Source: Patescibacteria group bacterium (lineage in GTDB: Bacteria; Patescibacteriota; Patescibacteriia; Magasanikbacterales; GWA2-37-8). Taken from it: a DNA stretch of 4,068 nucleotides. Position numbers and translations under genes: made by a program. Under the pieces are notes generated by a model, which was not told where the DNA came from, made no database searches, and saw only the letters and a program-made list of their open reading frames with translations. Positions within the stretch are counted from its first letter, which is position 1, and each line of letters begins with the position of its first letter. Shown piece after piece: positions 56 to 4,068 of the stretch. Where the stretch lies: assembly GCA_004321885.1 (NCBI GenBank), contig SCQK01000011.1, positions 1-4,068 on the forward strand, read 5' to 3'.

Positions 56-137
56 TTGTAAGGCGAAGCTTCGCAATCGCGGCAGGGCTCGGAAATGAAA
101 TTAAAATTTCATTTCACTCGCCCTTTGCGATTGTAGG
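56..137. repeat. Imperfect palindromic repeat element, copy A (REP/MITE-like), lying between a possible upstream gene end and the ATPase promoter
   Basis: Seen in sequence. There is a 12-bp perfect palindrome GCGAAGCTTCGC at 63-74. There is a perfect 11-bp-stem, 2-nt-loop hairpin GAAATGAAATT-AA-AATTTCATTTC at 92-115. Outer arms CAATCGC (74-80) and GCGATTG (127-133) pair around it, and AGGGC (84-88) pairs with GCCCT (120-124), giving an imperfect stem-loop of about 60 nt. The termini TTGTAAGG (56-63) and TTCACTC (113-119)-N10-ATTGTAGG (130-137) recur in copy B downstream. Confidence 0.55.
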
Positions 138-151
138 TGTGGATTCAGAGC

Positions 152-180
152 TTGACAAAAAGTTGTACTAATTGTATGAT
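152..180 (+). promoter_or_regulatory. Sigma70-type promoter: -35 TTGACA (152-157), 17-nt spacer, -10 TATGAT (175-180). Predicted TSS is near 187-188, about 22 nt before the ATG at 210.
   Basis: The -35 hexamer is an exact consensus match. The -10 matches TATAAT at 5 of 6 positions. The 17-bp spacing is optimal. The block sits directly upstream of the ATPase ORF in an AT-rich leader with no Shine-Dalgarno sequence. Confidence 0.6.
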
Positions 181-209
181 GAAGTTATAAAATAGTATTA
201 CTAATTATT

Positions 210-1388
210 ATGTTTTATTCACGCAAAATCCTCCCCTTTTTGAAGCAGCATCTAAAGAAGCGGCCGATTACGGTTATTACCGGGATGAGACGAACCGGCA
301 AAACAACGTTGGTAAAGCGTCTTTTGGATTTGGCGCCGGCAAAAAACAAAATTTATCTTGATTTGGAATTGCAATCCAATCAAGATATTTTCGCTCCAAG
401 AAATTATGATGAAATAATCCAAACCCTGCGCCGCCGTGGTTTGACGTTTGAACAAAAAGTATATATAGCGATAGACGAAATTCAGCTTGTACAAAACATT
501 CCAAGTATCTTAAAGTACCTTTATGATAATTTTGATATTAAATTTATTGTTACTGGTTCCAGTTCGTATTACATGAAAAATTTATTCGCCGAATCTCTGG
601 CCGGCCGTAAAAAAATATTTGAGCTTTATCCTTTGGATTTTGGCGAATTTCTTGATTTTAAAGAATTTCCGCGCGCGCGCGCAAATAATTGGCAGAGCAA
701 ATTTAATGTGGCGGAATACGAAAGAATCAGGATGTATTATGAAGAATACGTGGAATTCGGCGGTTTTCCGGAAGTGGTTTTGGCAAAAATCGCCGCTGAT
801 AAAAAGGAATTGCTGGACGATATTATTAGTTCATACATAAAAATTGACGTGGCGACTCTTTCGGATTTTCATGATCGGCAAAATGTTTATGATATAATCA
901 AGATGCTGGCAAGCCGCGTGAGCAACAAAATTGATTTTTCCAAACTCTCTCGTTTATCCGGAATTTCGCGAACGATGGCGCGGAACTATCTTGGTCTTTT
1001 TACCGATACCTATCTTGTTGCGCAGGTGCCTGTTTATACCAGAAATCGCGATCGTGAAATAGTAAAAGCAAAAAAATTGTATTTTTGCGACAACGGACTG
1101 CTGTCTTTTTTGGCAGACGTCGGCAGCGGGGCGAAATTTGAAAATGCCGTTTTTAACCAGCTCCGTCATAATGGGCAAATTAGTTATTTCTCACTTAAAA
1201 ACGGTAGGGAAATAGATTTTGTTTTGGATGAAAAAATAGCTTTTGAGGCAAAGGAAACGCCGACACAGACAGATTTAACCAATTTGAAAAATTTGGCTAA
1301 AACGGCCGGTTTGAGGAAACACCGTCTGATCGGCCGGCGACGGTCTCCCGTTTTTAGTGATTATATGTGGGGGGGAGAAATAGTATGA
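210..1388 (+). CDS. AAA+ superfamily ATPase, AAA_14 N-terminal domain plus DUF4143 C-terminal domain (COG1373-like 'predicted ATPase'); function unknown; 392 aa
   Basis: This is the 392-aa ORF from the supplied track. Walker A GMRRTGKTT sits at aa 25-33 (nt 282-308). Walker B hhhhDE is YIAIDEIQ at about aa 85-92, followed by a sensor-like IVTGSSS. The DUF4143 hallmark FSKLSRLSGISRTMARNYLGLFTDTYLV...KKLYFCDNGLL matches my recollection of the family consensus LAKELGIS..TV..YL..LE..FLI...KIYFYDTGL. The C-terminal GREIDFVLDEK (D336, nt 1215-1217) and IAFEAKE (E346-x-K348, nt 1245-1253) resemble a PD-(D/E)xK catalytic motif. ATG 210 leaves about 24 residues before the P-loop, which is typical for this family. 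Confidence 0.92.
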   Translation: MFYSRKILPFLKQHLKKRPITVITGMRRTGKTTLVKRLLDLAPAKNKIYLDLELQSNQDIFAPRNYDEIIQTLRRRGLTFEQKVYIAIDEIQLVQNIPSILKYLYDNFDIKFIVTGSSSYYMKNLFAESLAGRKKIFELYPLDFGEFLDFKEFPRARANNWQSKFNVAEYERIRMYYEEYVEFGGFPEVVLAKIAADKKELLDDIISSYIKIDVATLSDFHDRQNVYDIIKMLASRVSNKIDFSKLSRLSGISRTMARNYLGLFTDTYLVAQVPVYTRNRDREIVKAKKLYFCDNGLLSFLADVGSGAKFENAVFNQLRHNGQISYFSLKNGREIDFVLDEKIAFEAKETPTQTDLTNLKNLAKTAGLRKHRLIGRRRSPVFSDYMWGGEIV

Positions 1389-1470: not shown

Positions 1471-4068
1471 ATGCTTGTCTGGCTGAAAATAATCTATTTC
1501 CGCTTGAAGCACAAATTGTTTGGCGTATTTTTACGTCGTTCGCTGAAACGAGCGTTCTCTTTGGTACCCTCCCCTATTAGGGGAGGGACAAAGGGTGGGG
1601 TTTCTCGCCATCGCCGCCAACGCGGCTATGGCCGGGCTGTCATTGCGAGCGAAGCGAAGCAATCCCATGCGTATTTAAGAAATGCCCTGCTTTTTTGTAA
1701 GGAATTGCTTCGTCGCTTCACTCCTCGCAATGACATTGTGGGCCTTCTCCACCCCCGCCACTTTCGCGCCGCCATCGCCTCGCTGGTCATCATCACCATA
1801 CTTCTCAATATTTTCAAACCGGCGCCGAGCAATATCGCCTATGGCGCCACATACACTTTTACCCAAACATCGTGGAGCGGCGGCGCCAGTTCTACCGCAG
1901 TGGCCACGCATGCCAGCGACCAGAGCGGGTGGAATAAATATGTTACGCTCGTGGATGGCGGTTTAGCGGGTCATTGGAAAATGGATGAAGCAAGTTGGAA
2001 TGGCACGGCCAATGAAGTGCGGGATAATTCTCAAAACAGAAATCATGGCGTGGTTTCCGGTTCAGTTCCTCTCTCAAATACCACCGCGGACGCGAAATAC
2101 AGCCGAGCCGGGAGTTTAGACGGCAATGACGCCGTAGTAGTTAGCGACTCCTCCAGTTTAAGGCCGGCGCAGCTCACAGTCTCTGCCTGGATTAAACCAA
2201 ACGGCGTTCAAGTCGGCGCTGCTAGAATCCTTGAAAAATATTGGGGCGGCGCTCCGACTTGGGATTCTTTTGTTTTGCGCTATGGATATACAGACAACGG
2301 AGAAAATCCAAACGCCATTACTTTTGACATCGGCAAATCCGGCGGGTGGACTGGTTGCATCAGCACTTCAACCAGTTTTAGCGGTGTATGGTCATTCATT
2401 GTTGGAACGTATGATAAGCAAAGTTTAAAAATTTATGTGAATGGTCAATTAGACAATGGCAACTGTCCGGAAACAGCGGATGTTATTTACACCAGCGGCG
2501 CTTTAAATATAGGTAAGTACGAGGGCGGCTCGGGCTTCAATTATAATGGCATAGTTGATGATGTTCGTGTCTATAATCGCGCCTTGTCCGCCTCTGAAGT
2601 GCGTAATTTGTACCGAGACACTTATCCGGATACTATTTCGGCCGGCGCCATGGTGCAACTGGCCTACATCAGTCCCACCTCTACGACCAGCACTTACTCC
2701 ACTGGCACCTCCACGCTCATCTCTTCTATTTTTGACGCTGGTGACGCGACCAATGTGGTCTCTAACATAAAATGGACAACCACGACCCAGCCGAGCGGGA
2801 CAGCCATTCTTTTTCAATTGCGCACAGCCAGCACTTCGGCTCTTGTTGACTTGGCCACTTTCGTAGGGCCGGATGGCACAGCCAATACATATTTTACCGA
2901 CCCCACCGGCGCGCAAAACACCACCACGACCATGCGCGACGGGGCCAACGACAGATTTTTTCAATACAAGGCGATTTTGACCACGACTAACGCGCTTAAT
3001 ACCCCCACCCTTGACCGGGTTCAAGTAACTTATGTTGTTAATGCCCCGCCTGAGGTGCAAAATGTGGTGGCGACAGCTAATGACGATGGCACGGTTACTG
3101 TTTCTTATCAAACACGCGATACAGACACTGATTCTGGCACTTTGGCCAATCGTTACAAAATTACGCCCTCGTTCCAATATTGTCCAAATGGCACGGGGTG
3201 TCAAAGCATTACCGCTCTCACGGCAAGTTCCACCGAGGCCAAAGCCGTGGCCACTTCCACTTGGACCACCCATACCGCCACTTGGACTCCGGCCACGGAT
3301 TTTTCCAACACCTATGACACTAATGCCGTAGTTAGAGTTACCGCCAACGATAACGAAGAAGCTAATAATACTGGTTCAGCCAATTCGGTTGGCTTTACTT
3401 TGGATACTATTGTTCCAACTTCCAGCGCTGTCAGTGTGAATGCTTCTGTTTCGCCTGTCGCTCTTGCTCTCTCGTCCTCGGATAGCTCCACCCTCTACAT
3501 GAAAATTTCTTTGAACAGCGATTTATCCGGCGCCAGTTGGCAAAGTTACGCCACAACCTCAACTATTACTCTGGCCAATCCCACCAGCACTGTCTATGTC
3601 CGCTATAAAGACGCGTATGGCAATCAGTCGTCAATTCTTTCCGCCGCTCCCCCAGAACAGCCAACTAATGCTGTTGTCCAAGACACAACAAATATCCTTA
3701 ATGGTCAGACGGATTATCGCCTGTTTATCGCCTGGAAAAAAATTGCCACGCCTGCTTCTGGTTTTGCCAATTACAAAGTTTATCGCGCCACTTCCACTGG
3801 CGGCAGTTATTCTCTTGTTGGCACTGTAATTGACATTAACACAAATTTTTTTACCGACACTACCACTGCCTATAATACTGATTATTACTATTACATTACG
3901 GCCACGGATAATTCCAGCAGCATCTCCTACAAGTCCTCAATCTTAAACGGCAAAGCCAACGGCACCCAAGACGCGGGCGAGGGCGGGGGCATCATACCGG
4001 CGGCCAACACCCCCACCATTTCCAATGTCGCCACTTCCTCGCCCACACCCTCGTCAATCACCATTACC
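1471..4068 (+). CDS. Large secreted or membrane-anchored surface protein, 5'-partial at the window end. N-terminal signal-anchor helix, then a LamG/concanavalin-A-like lectin domain (Laminin_G_3 type), then Thr/Ser-rich beta-sandwich (FN3/Ig-like) modules. It continues beyond 4068.
   Basis: My manual translation of the frame with codons at positions congruent to 1 mod 3 is stop-free from the TAA at 1450-1452 to the window end. The track omits it because there is no stop in the window. The first in-frame ATG is 1471. An in-frame GTG at 1738 begins a textbook signal anchor, VGLLHPRHFRAAIASLVIITILLNIFKPAPS. LamG hallmarks span about 1990-2630: ...LTVSAWIKPNG...WSFIVGTYDKQSLKIYVNGQLD...NGIVDDVRVYNRALSASEVRNLY. 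FN3-like hallmarks lie downstream: YKVYRATSTGGSYSLVGTV...TDTTTAYNTDYYYYITATDNSS. The composition is rich in T/S/A/G/N and low in charged residues, which fits an extracellular protein. The start is uncertain. ATG 1471 would give a basic tail of about 89 aa that contains the repeat elements. GTG 1738 gives a classical signal peptide but sits in GC-rich structured sequence. Confidence 0.8.
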   Translation, partial: MLVWLKIIYFRLKHKLFGVFLRRSLKRAFSLVPSPIRGGTKGGVSRHRRQRGYGRAVIASEAKQSHAYLRNALLFCKELLRRFTPRNDIVGLLHPRHFRAAIASLVIITILLNIFKPAPSNIAYGATYTFTQTSWSGGASSTAVATHASDQSGWNKYVTLVDGGLAGHWKMDEASWNGTANEVRDNSQNRNHGVVSGSVPLSNTTADAKYSRAGSLDGNDAVVVSDSSSLRPAQLTVSAWIKPNGVQVGAARILEKYWGGAPTWDSFVLRYGYTDNGENPNAITFDIGKSGGWTGCISTSTSFSGVWSFIVGTYDKQSLKIYVNGQLDNGNCPETADVIYTSGALNIGKYEGGSGFNYNGIVDDVRVYNRALSASEVRNLYRDTYPDTISAGAMVQLAYISPTSTTSTYSTGTSTLISSIFDAGDATNVVSNIKWTTTTQPSGTAILFQLRTASTSALVDLATFVGPDGTANTYFTDPTGAQNTTTTMRDGANDRFFQYKAILTTTNALNTPTLDRVQVTYVVNAPPEVQNVVATANDDGTVTVSYQTRDTDTDSGTLANRYKITPSFQYCPNGTGCQSITALTASSTEAKAVATSTWTTHTATWTPATDFSNTYDTNAVVRVTANDNEEANNTGSANSVGFTLDTIVPTSSAVSVNASVSPVALALSSSDSSTLYMKISLNSDLSGASWQSYATTSTITLANPTSTVYVRYKDAYGNQSSILSAAPPEQPTNAVVQDTTNILNGQTDYRLFIAWKKIATPASGFANYKVYRATSTGGSYSLVGTVIDINTNFFTDTTTAYNTDYYYYITATDNSSSISYKSSILNGKANGTQDAGEGGGIIPAANTPTISNVATSSPTPSSITIT
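1567..1587. repeat. Perfect GC-rich palindrome/hairpin CCCTCCCCT-ATT-AGGGGAGGG with a 9-bp stem and 3-nt loop
   Basis: Seen directly: 1567-1575 is the exact reverse complement of 1579-1587. No U-tract follows (the downstream sequence is ACAAAGGGTGGGG), so it is not a canonical intrinsic terminator. It lies 180 nt after the ATPase stop and inside the stop-free frame of the downstream gene. Confidence 0.7.
1639..1741. repeat. Imperfect inverted-repeat element, copy B: arms of about 25-31 bp at 1639-1663 and 1704-1734, a 40-nt loop, and terminal ATTGTGG (1735-1741)
   Basis: The left arm is GTCATTGCGAGCGAAGCGAAGCAAT. The right arm ATTGCTTCGTCGCTTCACTCCTCGCAATGAC is its reverse complement apart from a roughly 6-nt insertion. 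It shares TTGTAAGG (1694-1701), GCTTCG/TCGCAAT and TTCACTC (1717-1723)-N11-ATTGTGG with copy A at 56-137. Every frame translates to VIASEAKQS / LLRRFTPRND / DCFASLAMT-type peptides. I recall, unverified, that these are hallmark pseudo-peptides of a widespread palindromic repeat family. The overlapping small track ORFs 1626-1832(-), 1675-1911(-) and 1682-1966(+) derive from this element. Confidence 0.6.

What the first reader, a model, noticed from the sequence alone, without database searches (positions are those of the whole stretch)
210..1388. Orphan AAA_14/DUF4143 ATPase with its own strong promoter and a nuclease-like C-terminal motif
The gene is self-contained, with a consensus promoter and no operon partners on its 5' side. 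The P-loop NTPase module is fused to a domain whose conserved D...ExK pattern (EIDFVL ... FEAK) is the signature of PD-(D/E)xK phosphodiesterases. COG1373-like ATPases are widespread and often multi-copy. I recall them being over-represented in defense islands, yet no biochemical function is known. An ATP-driven nucleic-acid-cutting or NTP-sensing single-gene module would be consistent with this, but that is not demonstrated. The AT-rich composition relative to the neighbouring gene and the flanking repeats make it look like accessory or horizontally acquired DNA.
Basis: partly seen in the sequence, partly recalled or inferred. Interest (0 to 1): 0.5.

Follow-up and report, generated by a model that had tools for sequence, protein, structure and literature searches.

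The report
Self-regulated ATPase–nuclease gene, known family
This is an ordinary member of a very large, still uncharacterised family of single-gene ATPase–nuclease proteins already listed as an anti-phage candidate, but its strong promoter holds a conserved palindrome, different in each subfamily, which suggests the protein shuts off its own gene.

Summary
ORF 210-1388 (+) encodes a 392-aa AAA_14 + DUF4143 protein behind a near-consensus promoter (152-180).

An AlphaFold model (pLDDT 89) shows three modules:
- an ORC/STAND-like NTPase with a helical lid
- a winged helix
- a C-terminal PD-(D/E)XK domain

D336, E346 and K348 are kept in at least 102 of 104 distant relatives.

None of this is new. 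DUF4143 was placed in the PD-(D/E)XK superfamily in 2012. The family is PADLOC's untested candidate PDC-S01, described as the fourth most common 'defence' in prokaryotes. The single homolog tested in E. coli was not among the candidates that protected.

What I add:
- The promoter is conserved across homologs from several phyla.
- Its spacer holds a palindrome, CAAAnAGTnnnACTnTTTG. This occurs almost only upstream of this subfamily's genes.
- A second subfamily carries a different palindrome (core TATCnGATA) at the same place. Other paralogs have palindromes of their own.
- Divergent paralogs cluster. The gene is AT-richer than its flanks in 48 of 55 loci. Relatives are on plasmids and hardly ever in phages.

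Best reading: a horizontally mobile, self-repressed, ATP-gated DNA nuclease cassette. Its biological role (defence or addiction) is not shown.

The parts
152..180 (+). Sigma-70-type promoter: -35 TTGACA (152-157), 17-nt spacer, -10 TATGAT (175-180)
   Evidence: One search gives 11 of 12 matches. A match of at least 10 of 12 is found upstream of 42 of 54 homologs, against 8% of shuffles.
156..174 (.). Operator-like palindrome O1, CAAAAAGTTGTACTAATTG, filling the promoter spacer
   Evidence: It matches 13 of 14 specified positions of the template CAAAnAGTnnnACTnTTTG. At least 12 of 14 is reached upstream of 38 of 78 close homologs, 1 of 21 paralogs and 0 of 348 other genes.
189..207 (.). Second operator copy O2, AAAATAGTATTACTAATTA, between the predicted transcription start and the ATG
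   Evidence: The 17-mer at 190-206 differs at one position from the consensus AAATAGTATTACTAAAT. All 26 hits with at most 1 mismatch in 1.055 Mb of loci lie within 135 nt upstream of close-family genes.
210..1388 (+). CDS, 392 aa: AAA_14/DUF4143 (COG1373, PADLOC PDC-S01) ATPase-winged helix-nuclease
261..653 (+). AAA+ NTPase core (residues 18-148). Walker A is GMRRTGKTT (residues 25-33, nt 282-308). Walker B is D89-E90 (nt 474-479). Conserved R133 is a possible arginine finger.
876..1085 (+). Winged helix-turn-helix (residues 223-292), the N-terminal part of Pfam DUF4143. The presumed recognition helix is residues 254-266.
   Evidence: Secondary structure of the model. The NBD-lid-winged-helix stretch aligns over about 250 residues with 2qen, CED-4, NB-ARC and Cdc6.
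1125..1334 (+). PD-(D/E)XK nuclease core (residues 306-375, alpha-beta-beta-beta-alpha-beta). E311 is on helix 1. D336 is nt 1215-1217, E346 is nt 1245-1247 and K348 is nt 1251-1253.
1537..1564 (+). Terminator-like hairpin followed by a T-rich tail, 150 nt after the stop codon (candidate only)
   Evidence: Consensus scan. Not conserved in homologs.

Best explanation
The gene is a stand-alone, horizontally mobile cassette made of a promoter, an operator and one ORF.

Shown:
- The protein has three modules: an ORC/Cdc6- and STAND-like AAA+ NTPase with a helical lid, a winged helix-turn-helix, and a C-terminal PD-(D/E)XK nuclease with intact catalytic residues.
- It belongs to the AAA_14/DUF4143 family (COG1373, PADLOC candidate PDC-S01).
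- A near-consensus promoter travels with the gene.
- The promoter spacer is filled by a palindrome that is specific to each protein subfamily.

Inferred:
- A dimer of the protein's own winged helix binds that palindrome. This represses a strong promoter and keeps a potentially toxic nuclease at a low level. The logic resembles autoregulated restriction or toxin cassettes.
- ATP binding and hydrolysis drive assembly on DNA and license cutting by the nuclease domain.
- The biological role is in genetic conflict: defence against incoming DNA, or addiction/stabilisation of the DNA that carries it. This last step is the weakest.
For: - Domains: Pfam and PADLOC hits.
- Model quality: pLDDT 89, pTM 0.88.
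- Motifs: Walker A, Walker B and D336/E346/K348 are kept in at least 101 of 104 representatives of 29-49% identity.
- Promoter: at least 10 of 12 matches upstream of 42 of 54 homologs, against 8% of shuffles.
- Palindrome: 26 of 26 near-exact 17-mers lie in the 1.1% of sequence that is upstream of close-family genes. The general template is matched upstream of 38 of 78 close genes, 1 of 21 paralogs and 0 of 348 other genes. It is also present on a Runella plasmid homolog of 47% identity.
- Second subfamily (34% identical to the query, 55 non-redundant metagenome loci): it carries a different palindrome at the same promoter position. The TATCnGATA core is found in 36 of 55 of its upstream regions, 0 of 78 of the first subfamily's and 1 of 348 controls. 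The reciprocal counts for the first core are 29 of 78, 1 of 55 and 1 of 348.
- Other paralogs in the same loci have their own palindromes with 11-12-bp arms: 7 of 21, against 16 of 348 control genes.
- No conserved neighbour could supply a separate repressor.
- Accessory nature: lower GC than flanks in 48 of 55 loci; relatives of 52-66% identity in Patescibacteria, Ignavibacteria, Bacteroidota and Acidobacteriota; homologs on 451 plasmids.
- Conflict-type neighbours in some loci: AbiE, SoFic, PIN, HicA, type I restriction-modification.
Against: - No binding, ATPase or nuclease activity has been measured for any member that I could find.
- The one PDC-S01 representative tested in E. coli B against T4, T5 and T7 was not among the four protective candidates (PMC12881386).
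- Many loci are housekeeping (RuvC | gene | YebC next to dnaA). Defence enrichment was not measured against a genome background.
- About a quarter of the close homologs (22 of 78 score 9 or less of 14) show no clear match to the palindrome template.
- Conservation of the recognition helix was no more informative than that of the other domains.
- A palindrome of about 19 bp suits a repressor but says nothing about what the nuclease cuts.
Confidence: 0.55

Rival explanations
1. It is a conventional single-gene anti-phage defence system (PDC-S01). The nuclease degrades phage DNA after ATP-dependent sensing, and the palindrome is incidental or bound by another factor.
For: The PADLOC PDC-S01 models match at 4e-63. 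The family was nominated because members are embedded in BREX, DISARM or type I restriction-modification systems (bioRxiv 10.1101/2024.01.29.577857). One close homolog sits beside toxin-antitoxin genes and a type I restriction-modification system. AbiE, SoFic and PDC-S04 are among the neighbours. The family is almost absent from phage records.
Against: One representative was tested against three phages and was not among the protective candidates. Many contexts are housekeeping. The subfamily-specific palindromes at one fixed promoter position are hard to call incidental.
Confidence: 0.3
2. It is a selfish addiction or stabilisation module, or part of an unrecognised mobile element. An ORC-like initiator or partition-type protein binds repeats next to its own gene, and the nuclease acts on the element or on cells that lose it.
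For: The NTPase and winged helix resemble Orc1/Cdc6, which binds inverted repeats beside its own gene (own knowledge). Homologs are on 451 plasmids, including small Acinetobacter, Moraxella and Coxiella plasmids. Paralogs cluster. GC is lower than in the flanks.
Against: There are no conserved ends, target-site duplications or downstream sequence. No transposase, integrase or Rep partner is conserved. The conserved DNA stops at the -35 box.
Confidence: 0.12
3. It is a housekeeping DNA repair, recombination or regulatory factor of Patescibacteria.
For: The position RuvC | gene | YebC next to dnaA-dnaN is conserved in two assemblies. About 60% identity is kept across many Patescibacteria lineages.
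Against: Contexts vary. Several divergent paralogs occur per locus. The same subfamily is found in unrelated phyla and on a plasmid. Composition is atypical.
Confidence: 0.06
4. The PD-(D/E)XK domain is not a nuclease here. It serves DNA binding or oligomerisation, and the protein is only an ATP-dependent transcription factor.
For: Inactive PD-(D/E)XK domains are known (own knowledge). One paralog (L081 5623-6849) reads QVS where the ExK motif is expected (judged by eye, not from an alignment).
Against: E311, D336, E346 and K348 are kept in 95 to 103 of 104 distant representatives. That level of conservation is expected only under selection for catalysis.
Confidence: 0.07

Closest known systems
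Pfam AAA_14 (PF13173) + DUF4143 (PF13635) = COG1373; PADLOC candidate PDC-S01
   Same: It is a full member. Both Pfam models score far above threshold and the PDC-S01 HMMs match at 4e-63 over residues 3-342. It has the same length and the same single-gene organisation.
   Different: Nothing about the protein differs. The closest relative found is 66% identical. The conserved promoter palindromes reported here are not mentioned in the papers I could search.
Archaeal ATPase_2 (PF01637) proteins PABY2304 (2qen) and SSO1545 (2fna), COG1672, often fused to DUF234
   Different: The PF01637 score is below its threshold (26.3 against 33.2 bits). The solved chains do not cover a C-terminal nuclease domain.
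STAND NTPases with nuclease effectors (Avs/AVAST; CED-4; plant NB-ARC)
   Different: There is no C-terminal sensor repeat region. The nuclease is C-terminal rather than N-terminal. The protein is only 392 aa. The nSTAND Pfam models score below threshold. A conserved R133 fits an AAA+ arginine finger, which STAND proteins lack (own knowledge).
Orc1/Cdc6 replication initiators
   Different: Orc1/Cdc6 has no nuclease domain. There is no evidence of an origin here. The repeats sit inside a promoter.
PDC-S27, McrBC and other ATPase + PD-(D/E)XK defence systems
   Same: An NTPase is coupled to a PD-(D/E)XK nuclease. [quoted passage not shown]
   Different: McrBC is a two-protein GTPase system that reads modified DNA. 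PDC-S27 models hit this protein only at 0.004.
Controller (C) protein operators of restriction-modification systems; autoregulated type II toxin-antitoxin promoters
   Same: This is a comparison of regulatory logic only. In both, a palindromic operator overlaps the promoter of a potentially lethal nuclease gene that moves between hosts (own knowledge).
   Different: No separate regulator gene is present here. The DNA-binding domain would be part of the nuclease protein itself.

Membership tests
AAA_14/DUF4143 (COG1373) | Both Pfam HMMs score above their gathering scores, in the order N-terminal NTPase then C-terminal DUF4143 | tested here: met
   111 bits against a cut-off of 27, and 93 bits against 28.1.
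PADLOC PDC-S01 | Match to the PDC-S01 HMMs | tested here: met
   Seven PDC-S01 models match, the best at 4.2e-63.
PADLOC PDC-S01 | Single-gene system with no conserved partner | tested here: met
   No neighbour family is found in more than 6 of 150 nearest genes (paralogs of the gene itself included), and 8 of 131 more distant genes.
PADLOC PDC-S01 | Embedded in or next to known defence systems | tested here: inconclusive
   One close homolog lies beside type I restriction-modification and toxin-antitoxin genes. AbiE, SoFic and PDC-S04 occur near some loci. Many loci are housekeeping. No genome background was available.
PADLOC PDC-S01 | Protects against phage | not testable with these tools
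   From the literature: one representative was tested against T4, T5 and T7 and was not among the protective candidates.
PD-(D/E)XK phosphodiesterase superfamily | Alpha-beta-beta-beta-alpha-beta core fold | tested here: met
PD-(D/E)XK phosphodiesterase superfamily | Catalytic D on strand 2 and (D/E)xK on strand 3, conserved across the family | tested here: met
   D336 is kept in 103, E346 in 102 and K348 in 103 of 104 distant representatives. D336 and E346 are invariant and K348 at least 90% conserved in 120 close homologs.
PD-(D/E)XK phosphodiesterase superfamily | Metal-dependent cleavage of nucleic acid | not testable with these tools
   Needs biochemistry.
AAA+ ATPases (ORC/Cdc6-like) | Walker A GxxxxGK[ST] and Walker B hhhhDE | tested here: met
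   K31 and D89 are each kept in 104 of 104 and E90 in 101 of 104.
AAA+ ATPases (ORC/Cdc6-like) | Arginine finger and ATP-dependent oligomerisation | tested here: inconclusive
   R133 is kept in 101 of 104 and lies between the sensor-1 strand and strand 5. Its role as an arginine finger was not shown.
STAND NTPases | NBD, helical domain and winged-helix domain in order | tested here: met
STAND NTPases | C-terminal sensor repeats (TPR, LRR or WD40) and a match to the family HMMs | tested here: not met
   The protein ends about 100 residues after the winged helix, with the nuclease domain only. nSTAND6 scores 18.3 bits against a cut-off of 27.7.
Archaeal ATPase_2 (PF01637) | HMM score above the gathering score | tested here: not met
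   26.3 bits against 33.2. It is a structural relative only.

The most novel reading that the evidence does not exclude
Each subfamily of these proteins reads its own palindrome of about 20 bp through the winged helix. The same sequence-reading ability, beyond shutting off the gene, would decide which DNA the ATP-gated nuclease attacks or spares. Clusters of divergent paralogs would then form a repertoire of different DNA specificities. That would be a restriction-like innate system without a methylase, in one of the most abundant uncharacterised prokaryotic gene families.
Probability: 0.12. Interest if true: 0.7.

Novelty: new member of a known kind. Interest (0 to 1): 0.35.

Why it matters
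The gene adds nothing new on its own. Its family is large: 10,138 clusters at 50% identity, and it is described as the fourth most common 'defence' in prokaryotes. I found no solved structure, no biochemistry and no confirmed phenotype for any member.

The conserved, subfamily-specific promoter palindromes give the family its first concrete, cheap experimental handle: a defined DNA ligand for binding, footprinting and structural work. They also suggest a reason why heterologous tests might fail, since a strong promoter that is shut off by its own product could hold expression low.

Tried and rejected
- **Flanking repeats as element ends.** The repeat finder gave only short AT-rich families. 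The copy at 1378-1395 is not found at the 3' end of homologs. No conserved sequence follows the stop codon, and none precedes the -35 box.
- **RNA elements.** Rfam at E up to 1 gave only two chance-level hits. There are no tRNAs.
- **Solved relatives.** Sequence and profile searches of the PDB found only 2fna.
- **Phage origin.** No close relative is in IMG/VR. Only 16 weak hits came from 50,697 phage records, mostly short unannotated metagenome contigs.
- **Linkage to giant LamG or beta-helix surface-protein genes.** I saw this in the window and in 4 long contigs. Only 4 Laminin_G_3 and 2 Beta_helix proteins are among the 150 nearest neighbours, so I treat it as a feature of variable regions and not as a partnership.
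- **Recognition-helix conservation as a test of co-variation.** It was no more informative than the other domains.
- **Literature searches** for AAA_14, PF13173 and PF13635 returned almost only unrelated papers.
- **A loose 3-mismatch motif scan** was dominated by AT-rich noise. I replaced it with stricter scans.

Full report
**What is in the window**

The window is a complete 4068-bp contig of a Patescibacteria metagenome-assembled genome. The identical protein is on record as 'ATP-binding protein [Patescibacteria group bacterium]', with a longest contig of 4068 bp.

ORF 210-1388 (+) encodes 392 aa. Pfam finds AAA_14 (residues 18-148, 5e-32) and DUF4143 (residues 213-348, 2e-26). NCBIfam has nothing meaningful. 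PADLOC's phage-defence-candidate models PDC-S01 match at 4e-63.

Upstream there are only 209 nt, with no credible ORF. A strong hairpin lies at about 73-134. The promoter is TTGACA-17-TATGAT at 152-180.

Downstream there is a 349-nt structured spacer. After it comes a large secreted or anchored Laminin_G_3 protein that runs off the contig.

The gene has 39.7% GC against 50.2% for its neighbour.

**The protein**

A 120-sequence alignment of homologs of about 60% identity gave a confident AlphaFold model (pLDDT 89.4, pTM 0.88).

Among 103 full-length cluster representatives that are 29-49% identical to the query (104 rows with the query), the conservation is as follows:

| Residue | Kept in (of 104) |
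|---|---|
| K31 (Walker A) | 104 |
| D89 (Walker B) | 104 |
| E90 (Walker B) | 101 |
| R133 | 101 |
| E311 | 95 |
| D336 | 103 |
| E346 | 102 |
| K348 | 103 |

**What is already known**

DUF4143/COG1373 is listed as a PD-(D/E)XK family of unknown function in Steczkiewicz et al. 2012 (PMC3424549).

PDC-S01 is one of 145 untested candidates. They were nominated because members are embedded within BREX, DISARM or type I restriction-modification systems (bioRxiv 10.1101/2024.01.29.577857).

PMC12988326 calls PDC-S01 the fourth most common defence across prokaryotes and describes it as an ATPase fused to a PD-(D/E)XK domain. It also notes that single-gene candidates are enriched in small-genome lineages such as Patescibacteria.

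One PDC-S01 representative was expressed in E. coli B and challenged with T4, T5 and T7. It is not among the four candidates that protected (PMC12881386).

I found no biochemical study. The family has 10,138 clusters at 50% identity with E up to 0.001.

**Context of relatives**

Nine long contigs and 80 genome loci were examined. Relatives of 52-66% identity occur in many Patescibacteria lineages. They also occur in Ignavibacteria, Saprospiraceae and Flavobacteriales, in Pyrinomonadales, and on a Runella plasmid. That spread points to horizontal transfer.

The settings vary:
- RuvC | gene | YebC, a few kb from dnaA, in two assemblies
- among giant Laminin_G_3 or beta-helix genes
- ahead of a type IV secretion-like cluster
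- in a toxin-antitoxin, PDDEXK_1 and type I restriction-modification island

Among the 150 nearest neighbours (two genes on each side), the commonest families are further AAA_14/DUF4143 paralogs (6), Laminin_G_3 (4), Fic/SoFic (4) and AbiE (3-4). Housekeeping genes are also present. Genes five to six positions away show the same paralog signal (7-8 of 131) and scattered defence hits.

Seventeen loci hold two to five paralogs within 21 kb, and these are only 24-44% identical to the query.

The gene is AT-richer than the rest of its locus in 48 of 55 cases, by 3.5 points on average. Homologs are on 451 of 72,556 plasmids but in only 16 of 50,697 phage records. No close relative is in IMG/VR.

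The gene is clearly accessory and has no partner. Its link to defence genes is real in some loci but was not quantified here.

**The new observation**

A match of at least 10 of 12 lies within 120 nt upstream of 42 of 54 homologs, against 8% of shuffled controls. A match of at least 11 of 12 is found in 19 of 54, against 0.6%.

Lining up the upstream regions shows that the 17-nt spacer between the two hexamers is itself conserved and palindromic. The consensus is TTGACAAATAGTaTTACTAAATGTAtAaT, which contains CAAAnAGTnnnACTnTTTG. A second copy or half-site lies between the -10 box and the ATG.

In the window these sites are O1 (156-174, 13 of 14 template positions) and O2 (189-207).

The motif is tied to these promoters:
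- Near-exact 17-mers occur 26 times in 1.055 Mb of fetched loci. All 26 lie in the 1.1% of sequence that is within 135 nt upstream of a close-family gene.
- The template is matched at 12 or more of 14 positions upstream of 38 of 78 close genes, 1 of 21 divergent paralogs and 0 of 348 other genes with upstream spacers of at least 80 nt.
- Nothing is conserved beyond the -35 box or after the stop codon.

**Subfamily specificity**

Divergent paralogs in the same loci carry different palindromes with long arms in their own promoters. Arms matching at 11-12 bp are found for 7 of 21 paralogs, against 16 of 348 control genes.

I tested one such paralog (from L072, 34% identical to the query) by fetching 80 metagenome loci of its subfamily, which are 43-62% identical to it. 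Their promoters hold a different conserved palindrome at the same place: TTGACAAATACAnAnTATCnGATAnnATGTATTT. In the more distant members the outer arms change to AGTATAA...TTATACT, while the TATCnGATA core stays.

The reciprocal counts are clean:

| Operator core | First-subfamily upstreams | Second-subfamily upstreams | Control upstreams |
|---|---|---|---|
| A[AT]AGTnnnACT[AT]T | 29 of 78 | 1 of 55 | 1 of 348 |
| TATCnGATA | 0 of 78 | 36 of 55 | 1 of 348 |

**Interpretation**

The palindrome travels with the gene across phyla and contexts. It changes when the protein subfamily changes, and no conserved neighbour exists. The simplest reading is that the protein's own winged helix binds it as a dimer and represses a strong promoter. 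O1 occupies the RNA polymerase spacer, and O2 covers the start of the transcript.

This is inference. No binding has been measured. About a quarter of the close homologs lack a clear template match, and helix conservation gave no extra support.

The rest of the mechanism is also inferred, from the conserved Walker motifs, R133 and the D/E/K residues. It proposes ATP-driven assembly on DNA that licenses the PD-(D/E)XK domain to cut.

The biological role is the least certain step. Defence and addiction/stabilisation are both compatible with the data. A housekeeping role is unlikely given the paralog clusters, the spread across phyla and the atypical composition.

**Verdict**

Its 'flanking repeats' are partly the operator copies and are not element ends.

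The gene is a new member of a known, uncharacterised kind. The promoter-operator finding is a modest but testable addition.

Noticed in passing
window 73-134: A strong hairpin with a stem of about 28 bp, including the perfect palindrome GAAATGAAATT..AATTTCATTTC, lies upstream of the promoter (z = -3.1 against shuffles). It could be the terminator of an unseen upstream gene or a REP-like element.
   Followed up: partly
window 1568-1588 and 1637-1736: The intergenic spacer after the gene is highly structured (z = -4.8). It has a CCCTCCCC/GGGGAGGG hairpin and a 100-nt imperfect inverted repeat (GTCATTGCGAGCGAAGCGAAGCAATCC ... GGAATTGCTTCGTCGCTTCACTCCTCGCAATGAC). These produce spurious ORFs of the 'VIASEAKQS' and 'FVASLLAMT' kind. 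From my own knowledge this looks like a widespread bacterial repeat-element type. Its right arm abuts the likely GTG start (about 1738) of the next gene.
   Followed up: partly
window 1738-4068 (+), runs off the end: This is a partial giant surface protein with an N-terminal hydrophobic anchor and a Laminin_G_3 domain (5e-26). Thr/Ser-rich sequence follows, with no further Pfam match. Similar giant LamG or beta-helix genes flank homologs in L004, L006 and L009/L010.
   Followed up: partly
L009 6819-7187, 9379-9747, 18955-19299; L010: Small 23S_rRNA_IVP (four-helix-bundle, Avd-like) genes are interspersed between the giant LamG genes and two AAA_14/DUF4143 paralogs. The region looks like a mosaic variable region.
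   Followed up: no
L025 3298-12758; L028 3433-7708: Arrays of three to five very divergent AAA_14/DUF4143 paralogs (24-31% identical to the query) sit on one strand within about 10 kb.
   Followed up: partly
L081 5623-6849: By eye, one paralog reads 'IQVS' where the ExK motif is expected. It may be a catalytically dead copy, yet it keeps a perfect promoter palindrome (ATGGTACAAT..ATTGTACCAT).
   Followed up: no
L048 and L049: Two contigs appear to share the same sequence over this region: they give identical motif hits and identical paralog upstream stretches. One is labelled an uncultured Gammaproteobacteria MAG and the other a Helarchaeota (Asgard) MAG. Many 'binchicken' MAG labels (Gammaproteobacteria, Planctomycetia, Bdellovibrionales) also sit on Patescibacteria-like loci. 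This suggests mis-binning or placeholder taxonomy.
   Followed up: no
L046, L058, L065, L068, L074, L076, L085 (upstream of the match): In one group of homologs the -10 box (TAAAGT) ends only 11 nt before the ATG. The transcript would therefore be nearly leaderless. No Shine-Dalgarno sequence is evident in the window either.
   Followed up: no
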